NCBI GenBank assembly: GCA_951406725.2
Contig: OX597819.1
Coordinates: 88,350,001-88,414,000, forward strand
Length of the DNA stretch: 64,000 nt
Source of the DNA: Octopus vulgaris
Taxonomy: Eukaryota
Direction: 5' to 3'
Position numbers and translations under genes: made by a program. This document shows positions 631 through 52,432 of this stretch, one piece after another (position 1 is the stretch's first letter; every line of letters starts with the position of its first letter). The notes under the pieces were generated by a model. It was not told the origin of the DNA. It was given only the letters and a program-made list of their open reading frames with translations, and did not search any database.

Positions 631-795
631 TATATATATATATATATAAAAAGCAATAAAGATTCAAGTTAATTTAAATGAATTTACTTGAATATGGTAC
701 CTAACTTAGATGCACCAAAAAAAAACTATACTGATTTAACAATACAGTAATGTGGGGTGATTATAAGCGAGAATGAAGCAACAAGAATGGATAGG

Positions 796-886
796 TTTTA
801 GTACAATCGTTTCATACAAGGACAGGTTTTATTAAAAGTTGCAAAAATTACAGCATATAAACGTGTCCCGTACTCATCAGCTAAAA
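796..886 (-). ncRNA. Type I hammerhead ribozyme motif (intact-looking copy)
   Basis: Minus strand: UUUUAG-CUGAUGA-[GUACGGGACA...UGUCCUUGUAU]-GAAA-C-GAUU-G-UA-CUAAAA. Stem I is 6 bp, stem II is long, stem III is minimal, and the cleavage triplet is GUA. Confidence 0.75.
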
Positions 887-1001
887 TACATGTGAGTTCT
901 CTAGACATCCTAGTGGTTGAGGCTATACTCATGAAGTAATGTAGATAATTACTTCATGAGTATAGCCTCAACCACTAGGATGTCTAGAGAACTCACATGT
1001 A

Positions 1002-1088
1002 TTTTAGCTGATGAGTACGGGACACGTTTATATGCTGTAATTTTTGCAACTTTTAATAAAACCTGTCCTTGAAACGATTGTACTAAAA
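1002..1088 (+). ncRNA. Type I hammerhead ribozyme motif (copy with a 4-nt deletion at the base of stem II)
   Basis: ttttag 1002-1007, CTGATGA 1008-1014, GAAA 1071-1074, C-gatt-G-TA 1075-1082, ctaaaa 1083-1088. It lacks 'gtat' before GAAA relative to the minus-strand copy. Confidence 0.65.
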
Positions 1089-1112
1089 ACCTATCCATTC
1101 TTGTTGCTTCAT

Positions 1113-1174
<62 letters not shown>

Positions 1175-7050: not shown

Positions 7051-7884
7051 TGATTACACTTACACATTAGAAGCCAATATCTTTTTTGTTCCTTTCTTTT
7101 TGGTTCCTGTCTACTAAAACTCAATAACAATAATTCTCTCTCTCTCTCTCCTTCTCTCCTCTCCTTCTCTTTCTTTCTCTCTCACTCTGACGACTTTTAA
7201 ACAATCGCCTAAATAGAACATTCCAATGTTTCTAATAAAAACAGCATATTTCAACTATATTAATTGAAAAAAAATGTTCTTCTGTTTATTTGTTTATAAC
7301 GACGTAATTTAATAAATAAACGATGGAGACGATGCATTTAAACTTTGACAAAAATAGAAAAACAGATAAAAGGAAAGAGAAACGAATGAAAATGAGAAAC
7401 AGAAAAGAGAATGGGAGGTAGTGAAAGAGAAAGAGGTGATAGAAAAAAAGAGAGAGTACATGCTCTTGTATCACACTTTAGACAAATACGCTTTGAAAAT
7501 TTAAATTTAAATTTAATAGTTCTGTAGCTGCTCGAATATATACGAAACGTCAATTTACCAATTTAAAGACACAATAAACCTAGACAAGTGAACGAGAAAG
7601 CTTCCACGTGGTCACACGACTTTGCTAGAAATGGCAATCAAATTTACCTTTAATCACGCCTAACGGTCTTAAAGAGGGTTCCAAGGGATTCTGAAAAAAA
7701 AGCAGAAATAGGACAATCATTGATAGGACATCATTACTTATAGATGTTCTCGACCATGGCTAGATTGATGTTAAAGATGTCTGATATTCCAGGTAGTCCC
7801 GAATTAATTAAAAAATGGGCATAACCTGTTATTAACTCACAACGATCATTCAAATTACACATTATTAGAATAAGTCTTGCTTCT

Positions 7885-8640
7885 GTGCTTTTTCATACCA
7901 AGCAAATAATGAATTCCAAGCCGAAGCATTGTGCCGTCATTGAGTTCTTAACAAAGGAGAGACGCACGCTGTCCGACATCCACAGAAGGTTGCAGGTTGT
8001 TTCTGAAGATGACACCACTGACAAAAGCAGTTTGAACAGATGGATGAAATTTGAAGAAGGGGAAACCAGCATTGAAGACAAACCATGCAGTGGTAGATTA
8101 TCAGTTGCGACCACTAACATGAATCACCAGAGTAGATTAATTGATTTGTGCGTTCAGACGAGTCGCTATCAATGAACTTGTACAATTGAACTGTGGTCAC
8201 AATACAATGCAGAAGATTGTGAGAGACTTTGGATATTAGGAAGTGTGTATAAATTGGGTCCCTCGTCAGCTACCACCCGATTTGAAAATGAGAAGGGTGG
8301 AAGTCAGCTCTTTTCTACTGGAATCGTTTCAAGCCATCCTGATTTGATGACAAGTGATGAAACATGGGCGTATCTTTATGATTTGGAAGCGGATTGATGG
8401 AATGGTGTCACATCTCGAAGGTTTAATAAGTCCAAAAGTCTGCAATCGCACAAAATATCCGCCAACTACTTTGGGGATAATAATGGCATCATTCTCCTTG
8501 ATTTCCTGGGATGTGGCTAAAGCATGACCAGCAAGTAATATATTGAGACACTAAAAAAACTTGGCGAAGCCATTAGGAAGACGAAACCGAACGAGAAACT
8601 GAAAATAATTTACAATTACCATGACAATGTGTATCCTATA
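7885..8640 (+). pseudogene. Mariner (Mos1/SETMAR-like, DD34D) transposase pseudogene
   Basis: N-terminal HTH (AVIEFLTKE...IHRRLQ...RW..FEEGETSIEDKPCSGR), then WVPRQL, TSDETW and HDN motifs, in broken frames. Confidence 0.85.
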
Positions 8641-23347: not shown

Positions 23348-24070
23348 ACAGGGTGTTCCAAAAAATTTGATATCATTTCACAATCTAATAACTCTGCCAG
23401 TTATTCTTCAAATGACTTCAAATTTTAACAACATGTGTAGAAACAGGTCAAAATTTTATGCTTAATGTTTGATATGTTTATCTTTTCAGGGATAGAAATG
23501 GCATTCACTGGAAGAGAGAAGGCGTTTTGTGTGTTGGAGTATGCTCGAACACAGTCGAACAAGACTGTGCAGCGTGCATTTGTGAGAAAGTTCTCTAAAA
23601 AGTCACCAACGGCAATGCAGATTGGACGTGGCACAAAAAATTCAAAGAAGAAAGCTGTCTGTGCAGAGCAAAATGATCTGGACGACCACTAACATCGGAA
23701 GAGACGGTCGAGCGGGTTCGCCAAAAACTCTTACGAAGCCCCAAGAAGTTCATAAGAAGAACAAGTCTGGAATCTCAGATTCATCCAACGGCAGTTTGGC
23801 GCGTCCTGACGAAACGCTTGCTAATGAAATCTTACAAGCTGCTGCTCGTTAAGGCCATAAGGGCAGATGACAAGCGAAAACACAAACAATTCTGTGTTGA
23901 TATTCAAGAAAAACTTGAAGAAGCCGAGTTCAAGGAATGTATTGTTTTCAGTGATGAGGCCACATTTCATACAAATAGCAAAGTCAATAAGCATAAGAAA
24001 ATCCCCATTCCACAGTTGAGCATGAGAAGGACTCACCAAAAGTGAATGTGTTCTGTGCCATCTCCAAGGA
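23348..24070 (+). pseudogene. Tc1/mariner transposon 5' half with a DUF4817-type HTH transposase, frameshifted
   Basis: TIR-like cagggtgttccaaaaa, then MAFTGREKAFCVLEYARTQSNKTVQRAF...SGRP...RSPKK...IVFSDEATFH..KVNKH. It is truncated by a SINE at about 24075. Confidence 0.85.
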
Positions 24071-27393: not shown

Positions 27394-28141
27394 GGAGGTC
27401 TTCAGTTTCGCTCACAGATTTTAAAATTATTTTTTTTTCCGTTTAACTAAACAGTTTGAAACTTCGTATACTGATGTAATTTCTCACGCTGAACACGGTT
27501 TACTTTCAACATTTTTGACAACATTTCGTATTTTAGAAATTATTTCACGTTAAAGTTGTATTTGGGTAATTTTGGCCAATCAACGACATGTATTCAGCTG
27601 AAGAAAGCTACTGCTATGTGTGATAGTAATCGAAGAGTAACAACTTCCGGGACATCTCTACTAAATGTCACCATTCTGTTCTATTTTATTTTTGTTTACT
27701 GCCTGTGTTGCATATTACATGCTTTGCTTTTTTGTTTTTGCTTTCCGATCGCCTCTTTGTACGAGTGGTGAAATGCAAATGTACAGAGGCGCTCGTAAAG
27801 CAAAAAAAAAAAAAAAGGTGTGTAATATGCAACACAGGCAGTAAACAAAAATAAAATAGAACAGAATGGTGATATTTAGTAGAAATGACCCGGAAGTTGT
27901 TGCTCTTCGATTACTATCACATATAGCAGTAGCTTTCTTCAGCTGAATACACGTCGTTGATTGGCCAAAATTACCCAAATACAACTTTAACGTGAAATAA
28001 TTTCTAAAATACGAAATGTTGTCAAAAATGTTGAACGTAAACCGTATTCAGCGTGAGAATTTAGACCAGTACACGAAGTTTCAAGCTGTTTAGTTAAAGA
28101 ATGATAATTTTTAAAATCTGTAAGTGAAACTGAAAAGATCC
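27394..28141. mobile_element. Foldback MITE with GG...CC termini and an 8-bp TSD (Merlin-like)
   Basis: TSD GATTCCTT at 27386-27393 and 28142-28149. Arms 27394-27762 and 27781-28141 are reverse complements almost to the centre. Confidence 0.85.
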
Positions 28142-28544: not shown

Positions 28545-28633
28545 AAATGGCTCAGTGATTAGGGCGTCGGGCTCACAATCATGAGGTAGTGAGTTCGATT
28601 TCCGGACCAGGCTGTGTGTTGTGTTCTTGAGCA
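28545..28633 (+). mobile_element. tRNA-derived SINE family C head only
   Basis: tggctcagtgattag (A box) ... gagttcgatttcc (B box) ... gtgttcttgagca. Homologous to 57420 and 60597. Confidence 0.8.
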
Positions 28634-29200
28634 GCCATATTCCTACCGCTCTATGTCACGCTGGTGAGACCCATATTGGAGTACGGGATTCAAGCCTCTT
28701 CTCCTTATCTCCTCAAAGACATACATCATCTCGAAATAGTTCAGAAGCTGGCTACCCGCATGGTTCTTGGTCTCAAGTATTTGTCTTATGAAGAAAGGCT
28801 GAAGACGCTCGACCTTTATTCTCTCGAAAAACGACGGCGCCGTGGTGATCTCATTCTCGCTCACAACATCATAAGCGGAAAGCGTAACCTCTCGAAAGGG
28901 CTGTTCTTCACTCCTGCTCCAGAGCGTGGGCTGCGGAGTCACTCCGAAAAGCTCTATCTACGACGATTTCATCTCAATCGAAGGAGAGGGGCTTTCTCCG
29001 TCCGGGTTGCGGATCCGTGGAATAAGCTGCCGGACGAGATAGTGAAGATGCCGACGACTGCTCGGTTCAAAGTCTCTCTTGATCAGAAATGGCCTGAACT
29101 CTTTGTATGACCACCCTCCCTGTACATAACTCCCTGTCCCCCTACATGGCCTTGCTTTTGCTTTTTGAGCCAATAAAAAGTGAATTGAATTGAATTGAAT
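28630..29200 (+). mobile_element. 5'-truncated CR1-like LINE (3' end of ORF2, open to the stop at 29110) with a (TGAAT)n tail
   Basis: Protein nearly collinear with 51950-52432 (RPILEYGIQASSPYL...WNKLP...KWPELF), with a shared 3' UTR. Confidence 0.9.
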
Positions 29201-39519: not shown

Positions 39520-40186
39520 TATTTCTTATTTCTTTATTGCTCACAAGGGGCTAAACATAGAGGAGACAAACAAGGACAGACAAAGGGATTAAGTCGATTA
39601 CATCGACCCCAGTGCGAAACTGGTACTTTTATTTATCGACCCCGAAAGGATGAAAGGCAAAGTCGACCTCGGCGGAATTTGAACTCAGAACGTAACGACA
39701 GACGAAATACCTATTTCTTTATTACCCACAAGGGGCTAAACACAGAGGGAACAAACAAGGACAGACATAGGTATTAAGTCGATTACATCGACCCCAGTTC
39801 GTAACTGGTACTTAATTTATCGACCCCGAAAGGATGAAAGGCAAAGTCGACCTCGGCGGAATTTGAACTCACAACGTAACGCAGACGAAATACCGCTAAG
39901 CATTCCGCCCGGCGCGCTAACGTGTCTGCCAGCTCGATATCTTACCTATTTCTTATTTCTTTATTGCCCACAAGGGATCAAACATAGAGGAGACAAACAA
40001 GTACAGACAAACGGATTAAGTCGATTACATCGACCCTTGTGCGTTACTGGTACTTAATTTATCGACCCCGAAAGGCTGAAAGGCAAAGTCGACCTCGGCG
40101 GAATTTGAACTCAGAACGTAGCGGCAGACGAAATACGGCTACGCATTTCAGCCGGCGTGCTAACGTTTCTGCCAGCTCGCCGCCCT
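39520..40186 (-). mobile_element. Head-to-tail trimer of SINE family B
   Basis: Units at about 39521-39710, 39711-39935 and 39947-40186, highly similar to 46120-46352. Confidence 0.9.
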
Positions 40187-40204: not shown

Positions 40205-40760
40205 TATCTTTTACTTCATTCAGTCATTGGACTGCGGCCACACTGGAGCACTACCTTGACGGGCTTAGTTCTCAAAGTGGACGGCATTGCCCCTCTGTGG
40301 GCAATGGAAAGTTTCAAGGGGGCGTTGAAGAAAAGGGGACGATAATGGGGTAGCAATTCAGGTAAAATGTGGGGCAATAATAGGATAATGATTCATGTAA
40401 AAACAACAAAATAATGGGTTTATTAAGTTAAGTTTTATTTGTGAAATACAGTTGCTTTGAATTTGCTTCAGCAAAAGGTCTACGTTTGTGATGGTTACTT
40501 AGGGTGGAGGCGCTAGGAATGTAACCTGGGTGTCAAAAGGCGGCAGTCCGAAAAAGTTTGGGAACCATTGGCTTAGTCGAACAAATCGTTCCCAGCACTT
40601 ACTCTTTCCTTTTTTTATTTTCGCTTTGTACTATCGGATTCTTTGTCGAACAGCTAAGTTACAGGGACATAAACACACAAACACCAGTTGTCAATCGGTG
40701 GTTGGGGGACAAACGCACACACACGAATGCACACACACACGTGCGTGTGTGTGTGTGTTA
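40205..40760 (-). mobile_element. SINE family A 3' half interrupted by a hAT-like MITE (about 40265-40570)
   Basis: The SINE breaks at gcttagt and resumes at gcttagtcgaacaaatc. The insert ends in tttgggaaccattg, a hAT-type TIR. Confidence 0.7.
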
Positions 40761-40892
40761 TTTAGAATATGAGGAGTTTAGTTCACTGGTGATTTAAACG
40801 AATAGGTACGCTGTGTAAGTGCTATAATTGATCATCCGTTAGGTTTCAAGTTCACACCTGAGGCTGGAGCTAGGGATCCATAGTAGGAAAAA

Positions 40893-41552
40893 TATTAGAG
40901 AGAAAAAGACAACGAAAACCAAAGCAGGACGAGTATCTCAAGTCATTTAAAATATTTAAGTAGAGTAAGGTGAACTTGAGGTAATAAATAAATAAATTAA
41001 TTAATTAGTTAATAAATTATTGGATGTCTTACAGCTGTTTCTGAGATATCCCAAGTAATTAGTTAGCATCTCTATACACTGGGTATTCCGTCATCAGAAT
41101 AGTATGTATGAAAGTTCTAGACAAAAAATTCAGTTTATAAAGGAATAACATAGTAGATAGAAGAATAAAGAGTAAGACAGTAGACAGGAGAATAAAGAAA
41201 GGAGAATAAAGACCTGTGAACTTTATTCTCCTGTCTGTATTCTTCTGTCTACTGTTTTACTCTTTATTCTTCTATCTATTATTTTATTCCTTTATAAACT
41301 GTGAATTTCCATGTCTAGAACTTTCATACATACTAACCCTGTCTCTGATGATGGAATACCCAGTGTATAGAGATGCTAACCTACCACTTAGGATATCCCA
41401 GAAACAGTTGTAAGACATCGTATAATTAATTGATCAATTAATTAACTAACTAATTAATTAATTACTTCAAATTCGCCTTACTCTAATTAAAGATTCTAAA
41501 TGACTTAAGCTACTCGTTCTGCCTTGATTTATGTTGTCCTTTTTCCTCTAAG

Positions 41553-41555
<3 letters not shown>
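40893..41555. mobile_element. Penelope-like pseudo-LTR palindrome (arms 40893-41211 and 41221-41555)
   Basis: About 320-bp diverged reverse-complement arms around a 9-nt loop, with hammerhead motifs in both arms. It abuts (TA)n. Confidence 0.8.
41340..41417 (+). ncRNA. Type I hammerhead ribozyme motif
   Basis: tgtct-CTGATGA(41345-41351)-[tggaatacccagtg...cacttaggatatccca]-GAAA(41401-41404)-C-agtt-G-TA-agaca. The minus-arm copy (41025-41098) has the palindromic loop CAGCTG but a damaged stem I. Confidence 0.8.
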
Positions 41556-41616
<61 letters not shown>

Positions 41617-46119: not shown

Positions 46120-46352
46120 AAGGCGGCGAGTTGGCAGAAACGTTAGCACGCCGGGCGAAATGCTTAGCGGTATTTCGTCTGCCGTTACGCTCTGAGTTCA
46201 AATTCCGCCGAGGTCGACTTTGCCTTTCATCCTTTCTGGGTCGATAAATTAAGTACCAGTTACGCACTGGGATCGATATAATCGACTTAATCCGTTTGTC
46301 TGTCCTTGTTTGTTCTCTCTATGTTTAGCCCCTTGTGGGCAATAAAGAAATA
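46120..46352 (+). mobile_element. SINE family B, full length
   Basis: aggcggcgagttggcagaaacgttagc (A box) ... gagttcaaattcc (B box) ... gactttgcctttcatcc...gataaattaagtaccag (Meta-like) ... gggcaataaagaaata. Confidence 0.9.
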
Positions 46353-46444
46353 ACGTAATGTTCACCTCATCCCAGATTATGAATTAAAAACTTGGCCTCA
46401 AGGGGTATCGTAGGATATACACCGCCTTATAGAATTTTTAACCG

Positions 46445-50419: not shown

Positions 50420-50987
50420 GTATGTATATATATATATATGTCTTATGCATAAATGGCAATTTCTATCTTTCTGTTTGTTTCTATCTTGCTGCCTACACCA
50501 GTGAGCCAACCTTCAGAAAACTTTAATAATCCAGTTCAATTATAAGCTAACTGGATTTCAATAAAATTCAATAATAGGCCCTCTAGTGGGGTTGGGCTAT
50601 TATAGGATAAAATGAGAAGGGTGCAAAGAGTGCTAGTGTGAGGGAAATGTGGTGGCACAGTGAGTGTGGCTGATATCAGAAAAGGGGGGAACAGCGTTGC
50701 GTAAGCGACAAATATGGAGTGGCAGTGGGATGGTAAGATTGATACAGCTGTCATATACACACGACGCTGCATACATACTTTCGTAAATACATAGATGCAT
50801 GCACACACACACATGCACATAAGTCACTTTAAAAGGCCGAGGAAGGGAAAGAAAGGTGGGTGTAACGAATACGTAGCTTTAAGGAGAGTGGAGGTAGGTG
50901 GCTTTTCTGCTGTCTATCACAGAAACACTCACACACAGACACGCACATACATACATACATACATACATACATACATACATACATACA

Positions 50988-51023
<36 letters not shown>

Positions 51024-51025
51024 TA

Positions 51026-52432
51026 TTGGCTCCGGTCATCTGCGAGCCCTTAACACGACTATTCAATATGTCATTGGCGACGGGTGTTATACCTGCAGAC
51101 TGGAGAACAGCGATAATCTGCCCAATTTTCAAGAAAGGGAGCCGCGAAGACCCGCTTAACTACCGACCGGTTTCCCTTACATCAATAATCAGCAAGATGT
51201 TCGAAACCATCCTTAAGAAAAGTATGATGCTCCACCTCCTAAACACAGCCTCGATCACTGATTCCCAACACGGCTTCGTGCCGAAGAGATCATGCTTGAC
51301 CAACTTACTAGTAATGGAGGAATTGGTGACGCGCATCCTCGATGATAGTGATGCTGTTGACATCGTTTTATTGGACTTTGCCAAAGCTTTTGACTCGGTA
51401 AACCACCGCCTACTACTTGTCAAGCTTCAAGCATATAGTTTCCATCCGGATATTGTACGATGGGTTGGTGCCTTCCTCTCAGATCGCTCCTTCCAAGTTC
51501 AAGTTAATGGTTCGCGGTCCGACGTCTCCAGTGCGAGCAGTGGCGTGCCTCAAGGTTCAGTGCTTGGGCCCTTGTTGTTCTTAGTCTTCATAAATGACTT
51601 GCCCGACGACCTCACGCAACACACCCTTCTATTTGCCGACGATATCAAACTGGTCGCTCCTCGCGGTAGTATAGAGGATCTTCGTCGATGCCTCCACCAA
51701 ATTTGGAAGTGGTCTAACGATTGGGACCTGTGTCTGAACGTGTCAAAGTGCTGTCATCTGCCTGTCGGCTCTACTCCTGCAACTCAACTTGATTTCGAGC
51801 CGGGTCGTCTGCTGCTGGAGAGGACCGATCAGGTAAAGGACCTGGGTATCTTGGTGGATTCCTCCTTTTCGCCTTCGGCCCAGTGCGTCCATGCTGCCAA
51901 CAAAGCGCGCGGAATTCTGTTTTTGATTCGACGGTCATTCGGAATGCTCACAGCAGCCATATTCCTGCCACTCTATGTCACGCTGGTGAGACCCATATTG
52001 GAGTATGGGATTCAAGCCTCTTCTCCTTATCTCCTCAAAGACATACAGCACCTCGAAAGAGTCCAGAGGCTGGCTACCCGCATGGTTCATGGTCTCAAAA
52101 ATTTGTCCTACGAAGAAAGGTTGAGGACGCTCGACCTTTGTTCTCTTGAAAAACGCCGCCGCCGTGGTGATCTCATTCTCGCCCACAACATCATAAGCGG
52201 GAAGTGTAACCTCTCGAAAGAGCTGTTCTTCACTCCTGCTCCGGAGCGTCGGCTGTGGGGTCATTCCGAAAAGCTCTACCTGCGACGATTTCATCTCAAT
52301 CGAAGGAGAGGAGCTTTCTCCGTCCGGGTTGCGGATCCGTGGAACAAGCTGCCAGACGAGATGGTGAAGATGCCGACGACCGCTTTGTTCAAAGCCTCCC
52401 TGGACCTCAAGTGGCCTGAACTCTTTACATGA
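51026..52432 (+). CDS. Reverse transcriptase (ORF2 C-terminal about 470 aa) of a 5'-truncated CR1-like LINE; uninterrupted frame
   Basis: PIFKKG..NYRPVSLTS, QHGF...SCLTNL, LDFAKAFDSV.H, GVPQGSVLGPLLF, FADD, KDLGI. The ORF-track N-terminus (50795-51025) is unrelated flank and microsatellite. Confidence 0.9.
   Translation: MAPVICEPLTRLFNMSLATGVIPADWRTAIICPIFKKGSREDPLNYRPVSLTSIISKMFETILKKSMMLHLLNTASITDSQHGFVPKRSCLTNLLVMEELVTRILDDSDAVDIVLLDFAKAFDSVNHRLLLVKLQAYSFHPDIVRWVGAFLSDRSFQVQVNGSRSDVSSASSGVPQGSVLGPLLFLVFINDLPDDLTQHTLLFADDIKLVAPRGSIEDLRRCLHQIWKWSNDWDLCLNVSKCCHLPVGSTPATQLDFEPGRLLLERTDQVKDLGILVDSSFSPSAQCVHAANKARGILFLIRRSFGMLTAAIFLPLYVTLVRPILEYGIQASSPYLLKDIQHLERVQRLATRMVHGLKNLSYEERLRTLDLCSLEKRRRRGDLILAHNIISGKCNLSKELFFTPAPERRLWGHSEKLYLRRFHLNRRRGAFSVRVADPWNKLPDEMVKMPTTALFKASLDLKWPELFT

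What the first reader, a model, noticed from the sequence alone, without database searches (positions are those of the whole stretch)
40893..41555. Second large hammerhead palindrome; each arm keeps what the other has lost
Seen: inverted arms of about 320 bp. The plus-arm hammerhead (41340-41417) has an intact stem I (tgtct/agaca), CUGAUGA, a stem II of about 49 nt and GAAAC-AGUU-GUA. The minus-arm copy keeps the palindromic CAGCUG stem III needed for dimer pairing but has lost part of stem I. The sequence is unrelated to 769-1116, yet the architecture is identical. Known: palindromic stem III loops allow dimeric cleavage in PLE hammerheads. Inference: a cephalopod radiation of long-stem-II hammerhead retroelements. 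I cannot tell from here whether it has been described.
Basis: partly seen in the sequence, partly recalled or inferred. Interest (0 to 1): 0.75.

Follow-up and report, generated by a model that had tools for sequence, protein, structure and literature searches.

The report
Head-to-head Penelope ends, long-armed hammerheads
This palindrome is two clipped, decayed tail ends of a known kind of jumping gene (a Hydra-clade Penelope-like element) joined head to head, likely in one insertion event, and each end carries a motif predicted to be a self-cutting hammerhead RNA with one arm about twice the length seen in the published Hydra-clade examples, a form present in some ten thousand copies in this genome; cutting is untested.

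Summary
The palindrome and both hammerhead motifs are real. The arms (88% identical) are 3' ends (pLTRs) of an old, high-copy Penelope-like retroelement. Other copies carry, upstream, a 3'UTR, a GIY-YIG endonuclease and a reverse transcriptase with Hydra-clade motifs. The arms do not complement each other: they lie on opposite strands and decayed independently, and a read-through transcript is predicted to bury the core in a long duplex. The radiation is real in this genome: 10,350 exact-core type I motifs have a 45-75-nt stem II (437 in the reversed control), against 9-26 nt in the published Hydra-clade table. Stem II grows stepwise (21, 25, 29, 49, 61 nt) within one lineage and shows no covariation within this family. 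PLE hammerheads, inverted insertions, an octopus Hydra family and a long stem II in spike moss are all in print, and this scan has noted the same thing on other DNA. Verdict: a new variant of a known kind.

The parts
40718..40759 (.). (CA)n/(TG)n microsatellite, left flank of the insertion
40764..40891 (-). PLE 'tail' on the left arm only (128 nt here, with a short deletion at its start; about 142 nt in other copies); ends just after a small hairpin at about 40779-40802
40892..41211 (-). Left arm: 5'-truncated 3' end (pLTR) of family F1, 11.3% from the family majority
41025..41097 (-). Left type I hammerhead: CUGAUGA 41097-41091, 49-nt stem II, GAAAC-AGCU-GUA 41041-41030; 5' strand of stem I deleted
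41212..41213 (.). Head-to-head junction; the two 5' truncation points lie about 7 nt apart in the element
41214..41555 (+). Right arm: 5'-truncated 3' end (pLTR) of family F1 without tail, 6.9% from the family majority; stops at the family's short 3' end (..CTCTAATATA in most copies)
41340..41417 (+). Right type I hammerhead: stem I 5 bp, CUGAUGA, 49-nt stem II (41352-41400), GAAAC-AGUU-GUA; predicted cut after 41412
41423..41464 (+). (TAAT)n tract inside the element, downstream of the predicted cut; absent from one subfamily
41560..41613 (.). (TA)27 microsatellite, right flank and likely target
648..1116 (.). Comparison locus: same architecture in young family F2 (tail about 648-768 on the left, arms 769-940 and 948-1116, 60-nt stem II, (TA)n both sides); full-length copies with an open ORF exist elsewhere in the genome

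Best explanation
The locus is two 5'-truncated 3' ends of a Hydra-clade Penelope-like retroelement joined head to head beside (TA)n and (CA)n repeats, likely laid down in one insertion event and now decayed, each with a hammerhead motif that would have cut the parent RNA, probably as a same-sense dimer. Shown: family membership, gene order RT - linker - EN - 3'UTR - hammerhead - short end - tail, head-to-head geometry, one-sided tail, independent decay. Inferred from published PLE biochemistry: the GIY-YIG endonuclease nicked both strands of an AT-rich repeat; each nick primed reverse transcription, one at the short end and one about 140 nt further 3' (giving the tail); both cDNAs stopped about 130 nt upstream of the hammerhead core and were joined. 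Inferred for the ribozyme: in the parent element two same-sense pLTR copies pair through ACAGCUGU (8 bp) and cut after GUA, perhaps with help from the element's protein. The 49-nt stem II is most likely a tolerated tip extension of a basal helix shared with sister families of 21-61 nt. This particular locus is very unlikely to cut.
For: At least 1,425 first-look candidates, best 40 scored, at 79-87% identity over most of the arm. About 17 of 30 loci picked by the endonuclease region carry the arm downstream in the same orientation, mostly about 0.7 kb away (read). L121 holds RT, linker, EN, UTR and arm in order on one strand. The EN hits Pfam GIY-YIG (E 1.8e-4, 22.2 bits, just under the 22.6 cut-off) and GIY-YIG clusters in the Atlas (0.95-0.96). 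Motifs CxCx5C, CxxC, CxH, R-x-K-W in place of RWK in L121, DKT in sister copy L124 and RWK + DKT in F2 match the Hydra diagnosis (PMC8557442 section 11). Tail on exactly one arm in 11 of 13 F1 pairs and 11 of 11 F2 pairs, never on both. Among the first 100 listed pattern hits, 8 of 9 neighbouring pairs within 6 kb are head-to-head. PAc nicks and extends both strands and starts RT at two sites that bound the tail (PMC11167929). Loop III is a perfect palindrome in 92 of 128 sampled motifs (the RNNY pattern favours this). Nested stem II lengths.
Against: No cleavage data: no RNA holder was listed and contigs cannot show ends. The hammerhead fold lies a median 13 kcal/mol above the minimum-energy fold in 39 F1 copies, and the F1 stem II is weak (median z -0.5; 3 of 39 below -2). 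The first pair of stem II is a C.A mismatch in the family majority. Of 30 loci picked by sequence downstream of the cut, none plainly begins at the cut site (read by eye). No F1 copy with pLTR + tail running into an ORF start was found; that link is shown only for F2. The Hydra assignment rests on motifs, not on a tree with reference sequences. In PAc, cleavage was not needed for insertion. Two of 13 F1 pairs lack a scored tail (one is interrupted by another insertion after about 10 nt).
Confidence: 0.88

Rival explanations
1. The long stem II is a selected functional module (protein-binding or translation element, or a switch) rather than a tolerated extension. In F1 and its sister family the 3' strand of stem II is itself a 12-nt palindrome (UGGGAUAUCCCA) that can fold on itself and keep the monomer off.
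For: About half of the exact-core motifs counted have 45-75 nt (10,350, against 4,898 at 22-52 and 4,631 at 6-21; ranges overlap). Of 50 sampled motifs of 40 nt or more, 23 fold at z below -2, median -1.8. Across 7 F2-lineage sequences 5 of 24 predicted pairs change on both sides, 2 of them in stem II. Subfamily F1b turns G.U pairs into G-C (z -2.8). The competing hairpin appears in dimer folds.
Against: Length runs from 21 to 61 nt within one lineage with the same core and basal stem, and short forms are as abundant. No shared sequence between families' extensions. No covariation in 39 F1 copies (259 of 500 shuffles reach the score). Three of the 5 double changes lie in stem I, and that consensus also holds pairs through the core that a hammerhead cannot have.
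Confidence: 0.25
2. The locus is a non-autonomous retrozyme or hammerhead SINE that spreads through small circular RNAs.
For: Most copies are short and non-coding; metazoan retrozymes carry type I hammerheads, including in a mussel (PMC7229834 passages).
Against: Copies extend 5' by variable lengths into EN and RT; no tandem monomer arrays of the unit among the 30 loci.
Confidence: 0.05
3. The palindrome is a functional unit: a MITE-like foldback element, or two complementing half-ribozymes as the title suggests.
For: 320-bp inverted arms next to TA repeats.
Against: Spacing and truncation points differ in every pair (gaps 1 to 1,244 nt); most copies are single arms; arms decayed independently; either strand folds with all 7 CUGAUGA bases paired to the other arm (-393 kcal/mol).
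Confidence: 0.03

Closest known systems
Hydra clade of C-terminal EN+ PLEs, including Hydra-1_Obim of Octopus bimaculoides (Craig et al. 2021, PMC8557442; passages, outline, and supplement part 2 with Files S1 and S2 read)
   Same: RT then GIY-YIG EN; RWK, DKT, CxCx5C, CxxC and CxH motifs; (TA)n target; type I hammerhead near the 3' end; inverted 5'-truncated copy; tail at one end; a mismatch at the base of stem II (U.U in many Hydra rows; C.A in the row for PLE-X1_cBra, which is not a Hydra element).
   Different: Stem II segment 49 nt (45-75 nt in about 10,000 motifs) against about 9-26 nt in the Hydra rows of File S2 (my count); tail 121-142 nt against 30-40; 3'UTRs of 0.7-1.5 kb; tens of families against one listed octopus family. 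The F1 hammerhead differs in sequence from that of Hydra-1_Obim.
PLE hammerheads of Cervera and de la Pena 2014 (PMC4209133; parts 1-2 of 4 read)
   Same: Type I, weak palindromic stem III implying dimers, helix II larger than usual, extra nucleotide after A9, pairs of motifs 100-700 bp apart on opposite strands, mostly in truncated copies.
   Different: Helix II there is 6-8 bp; here about 16 bp with bulges, and an extra A also stands before G12.
PLE-X1_sMoe and PLE-X1_sTam hammerheads of spike mosses (File S2 of PMC8557442)
   Same: About 50 nt between CUGAUGA and GAAA: a direct precedent for a long stem II in a PLE.
   Different: Plant, EN-lacking elements, marked as deviating; two rows, not a radiation.
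PAc (Poseidon, Anolis) in vitro system (Frangieh et al. 2024, PMC11167929; passages and second part of main text read)
   Same: Two RT start sites bounding the tail; both DNA strands nicked and extended; AT-rich target; hammerhead in the pLTR.
   Different: Other clade; the ORF starts inside stem II there, about 200 nt downstream of the cut in F2 here; start sites there were not homologous to the target, whereas both ends here fall at TATA-like words next to (TA)n.

Membership tests
Penelope-like element (EN+) | RT and GIY-YIG EN in one ORF, upstream of the pLTR | tested here: met
   In other copies of the family: L121 RT-linker-EN-UTR-arm, broken by stops and a deletion; EN Pfam hit just under cut-off. 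The window locus itself has no coding part.
Penelope-like element (EN+) | 5' truncation, inverted 5' copy, tail at one end | tested here: met
   11 of 13 F1 pairs and 11 of 11 F2 pairs have one tail.
Penelope-like element (EN+) | pLTR also precedes the ORF in a full-length copy | tested here: inconclusive
   Met for F2 (L129); no F1 copy with its 5' end was found among the 10 F1-lineage stretches.
Hydra clade | CxCx5C linker; CxxC and CxH around conserved E and N | tested here: met
   CNCRSGTEC..., CELC, CKH in F1 copies; definition.
Hydra clade | RWK motif and DKG changed to DKT | tested here: met
   Both intact in F2; RMKWRT in L121 (F1); SDKTG in sister-family copy L124; the DKT stretch of L121 is decayed.
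Hydra clade | Insertion into (TA)n | tested here: met
   Right flank (TA)27; TA runs follow most 3' ends.
Hydra clade | RT phylogeny groups with Hydra references | not tested
   No reference proteins were available as tool sequences.
Neptune clade | CX2-5CxxC linker and CCHH motif | tested here: not met
   Linker is CxCx5C. My first guess, withdrawn.
Type I hammerhead ribozyme | CUGANGA, GAAA, UH core with stems I-III | tested here: met
   Plus arm; both core halves intact in 25 of 48 F1 copies. Not met for stem I of the minus arm. Rfam gave no hammerhead match for 40700-41560 at E up to 10.
Type I hammerhead ribozyme | G10.1-C11.1 first pair of stem II | tested here: not met
   C.A in the F1 majority with G-C as second pair; G-C first in only 9 of 128 sampled motifs. 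Precedents for a mismatch here.
Type I hammerhead ribozyme | Covariation in stem II | tested here: inconclusive
   None within F1; some between related families; small numbers, related sequences.
Type I hammerhead ribozyme | Self-cleavage after UH | not testable with these tools
   Only contigs were served.
Metazoan retrozyme | Non-coding tandem monomers, no linked ORF | tested here: not met
   Linked EN and RT; no tandem monomers.

The most novel reading that the evidence does not exclude
Octopus-type Hydra PLEs have evolved a distinct hammerhead subtype, with a mismatch-closed, 45-75-nt stem II kept as a long hairpin across tens of families and over ten thousand copies, in which the extension is a selected module (a landing site for the element's own protein, or a switch that allows cutting only in the dimer). 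The strict one-sided 120-140-nt tail records a two-nick, two-primer insertion on a single RNA. The young sister family with an open 950-residue ORF makes both directly testable.
Probability: 0.25. Interest if true: 0.65.

Novelty: new variant of a known kind. Interest (0 to 1): 0.4.

Why it matters
The locus itself is a dead fragment. Its class matters modestly. Second, what PLE hammerheads do is still open, and a natural series of stem II lengths on one core, plus a young family with an open ORF in the same genome, is good material for testing dimer cleavage and protein assistance. Third, the tail rule (22 of 24 pairs one-sided, none two-sided) puts numbers on a published qualitative remark and constrains models of how inverted PLE insertions form.

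Tried and rejected
Neptune clade: my first assignment (also in the notebook entry), rejected after reading the clade definitions. Rfam: no hammerhead among the 150 of 221 rows shown for the window nor among all 32 rows for 40700-41560. Whole-motif folding gave no signal for any of the four window motifs (z -0.38 to +0.12). The search for homologous proteins with the EN fragment found nothing among longer proteins; the representative search found 1,299 unnamed relatives, not used further. RNA: no RNA holder listed; contigs of runs only guessed to be RNA hold pieces of F1 and F2 but show no start or end at the cut, and cannot; the depth drop at 41419 falls on a skipped repeat. Copies starting at the cut site: not seen among 30 loci (best-scoring hits only). 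A splice branch point at TACTAAC (41331-41337): rejected, as the family majority reads TACTCAC and no matching joint was seen. Copies that seemed to end at the cut site are a subfamily lacking the (TAAT)n tract. A first tail count missed pairs through a de-duplication fault and is replaced. Lunse et al. 2017 and Arkhipova et al. 2017 are not held; the former is known to me only through a review (PMC6765202 passages), so long-stem-II variants could be described there unseen.

Full report
Observation. The two arms align over 40892-41210 and 41222-41554 with 279 of 318 aligned bases identical. A motif scan of the window found three type I hammerheads with a stem I of 4 bp or more: 41345-41412 (+, 49-nt stem II) and the two at 769-1116. 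The minus-arm motif has the same core and stem II length but a 7-nt deletion in the 5' strand of stem I. Rfam does not see them, and whole-motif folds are no better than shuffles.

The family. The right arm has at least 1,425 first-look candidates in a 2.8-Gb genome; the 40 scored are 79-87% identical over most of the arm. Forty-eight copies lie on average 12% from their majority. The copies extend 5' by variable lengths and end 3' at one of two points: at CTCTAATATA, or about 142 nt further on, just after a small hairpin. The window's left arm carries this extension to 40764; the right arm does not. Upstream, long copies hold about 0.7 kb of UTR and then a GIY-YIG endonuclease, and further upstream a reverse transcriptase. 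Locus L121 has RT, linker, EN, UTR and arm in order on one strand. The 769-1116 palindrome belongs to a second, young family (F2; 98% identical copies, 1,147 candidates) with a full-length copy: pLTR, tail, a 981-codon open stretch with RT and EN, 1.5 kb of UTR, pLTR. In F2 the tail is simply the sequence that runs on towards the start codon.

Clade. Craig et al. (PMC8557442; passages; supplement part 2) define the Hydra clade by RWK, DKT, a CxCx5C linker, CxxC and CxH motifs, and (TA)n targets, and list Hydra-1_Obim from Octopus bimaculoides. F2 shows all the motifs; F1 copies show CxCx5C, CxxC, CxH and a decayed RWK region, and a sister copy shows DKT. I did not build a tree. That the host is an octopus is my inference from genome size, contig number and repeat content; no call names it.

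Geometry and mechanism. The same paper describes an inverted 5'-truncated copy and a 30-40-bp tail often at one end only. Here 11 of 13 F1 head-to-head pairs and 11 of 11 F2 pairs have the tail on exactly one arm, and none on both (pairs are those inside the fetched loci, which are best-scoring hits). The tail is 121 nt in F2 (TA loose ends at L129 5986 and 6107) and about 142 nt in F1. In the PAc system the enzyme nicks and extends both strands and starts at two sites that bound the tail (PMC11167929). I infer one event with two primers: one cDNA from each start site, both truncated, joined head to head. Both ends fall at TATA-like words beside (TA)n, so annealing to the target is possible here, unlike in PAc. 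No target duplication can be read in the microsatellites.

The two arms do not complement. Against the majority they share 2 differences and have 18 and 34 private ones. They are on opposite strands, whereas dimer cleavage needs two same-sense copies (PMC4209133 parts 1-2; review PMC6765202). A transcript of either strand folds into one long duplex that pairs all seven CUGAUGA bases. The plus arm's U-A closure is probably CpG decay (C in 34, T in 11 of 48 copies), and its stem III word still self-pairs weakly.

The long stem II. Exact-core patterns with an RNNY loop III give 4,631 matches at 6-21 nt (control 68), 4,898 at 22-52 nt (control 142) and 10,350 at 45-75 nt (control 437); the last two ranges overlap, and decayed copies are missed. 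I examined 128 motifs from the start of contig C1 (the first 100 listed, plus 28 further ones from the first 30). They fall into 48 clusters, 15 with two or more members; 68 have a stem I of 4 bp or more, 92 a palindromic loop III, and the stem II segments fold at median z -1.6. PLE protein matches were seen beside about a dozen (part of that output was cut), so PLE origin is shown for some clusters, not all. The first pair of stem II is mostly a mismatch (A.A 28, C.A 23, A.G 14; G-C 9), and 37 have CCGAYGA. Within the F1 lineage the same stem I, basal helix and AGCU loop go with 21, 25, 29, 49 and 61 nt. Within F1, 88% of cells pair but covariation equals shuffles, as expected of neutral copies; across seven F2-lineage sequences a few pairs change on both sides. 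The F1 stem II is itself weak (median z -0.5). I read the extension as structurally constrained but labile.

What is known. The Hydra rows of File S2 have about 9-26 nt between the core halves (my count); two spike-moss PLE rows have about 50 nt, and mismatches at the base of stem II are listed there too. Cervera and de la Pena already noted motif pairs 100-700 bp apart on opposite strands. 'Long helix II' in viral type I motifs means 6-8 bp (PMC13725137 passages). Seven searches of the paper library found no report of a cephalopod long-stem-II radiation; Lunse 2017 and Arkhipova 2017 were not available, I read only part 2 of 59 of the Craig supplement and none of Cervera's, and repeat databases were not searched. 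Earlier notes of this scan report the same class in this and another genome; my Hydra assignment was made before I saw them.

Verdict. A real, well-explained, dead fragment of a known clade. The scale and length range of stem II, and the long one-sided tail, are an apparently unreported variant. Interest 0.4.

Noticed in passing
window 27401-28134: A third head-to-head palindrome (330 of 353 identical) from another high-copy family (2,603 first-look candidates; many of the scored hits are inverted pairs). No canonical hammerhead and no PLE protein match in 12 loci. Could be another PLE end with a differently wired ribozyme; unexplained.
   Followed up: partly
L129:1889-4831 (-), G000:C2 near 37.62 Mb: Two full-length F2 elements head to head, one with an open 981-codon stretch (RT + GIY-YIG, long Asn-rich linkers), the other with a frame break: a young, possibly active Hydra-clade PLE.
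   Followed up: partly
window 41387-41400 and family majority: The 3' strand of stem II is a 12-nt palindrome (UGGGAUAUCCCA) in F1 and its 29-nt sister; it folds on itself in dimer predictions and could be a switch or a second dimer contact.
   Followed up: partly
window about 40779-40802 (-) and about 660-693 (-): A hairpin lies 12-15 nt upstream of the long 3' end in F1, its sister family and F2, with different sequences; a candidate RT start signal.
   Followed up: partly
G000 contig C1 sample: CCGAUGA (U4C) cores are the majority in one large family and 37 of 128 sampled motifs.
   Followed up: no
window 50795-52432 (+) and 28631-29110 (+): A 545-codon open stretch that looks like a LINE reverse transcriptase (judged by eye, CR1/Jockey-like), and a 3' fragment of the same family.
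   Followed up: no
window 7825-8175 and 23677-24045: Fragments that look like Tc1/mariner transposases, judged by eye.
   Followed up: no
window 39953-40184 and 46122-46353: Two inverted copies of a 232-nt repeat, 91% complementary, on either side of the finding; probably copies of a dispersed SINE-like repeat.
   Followed up: no
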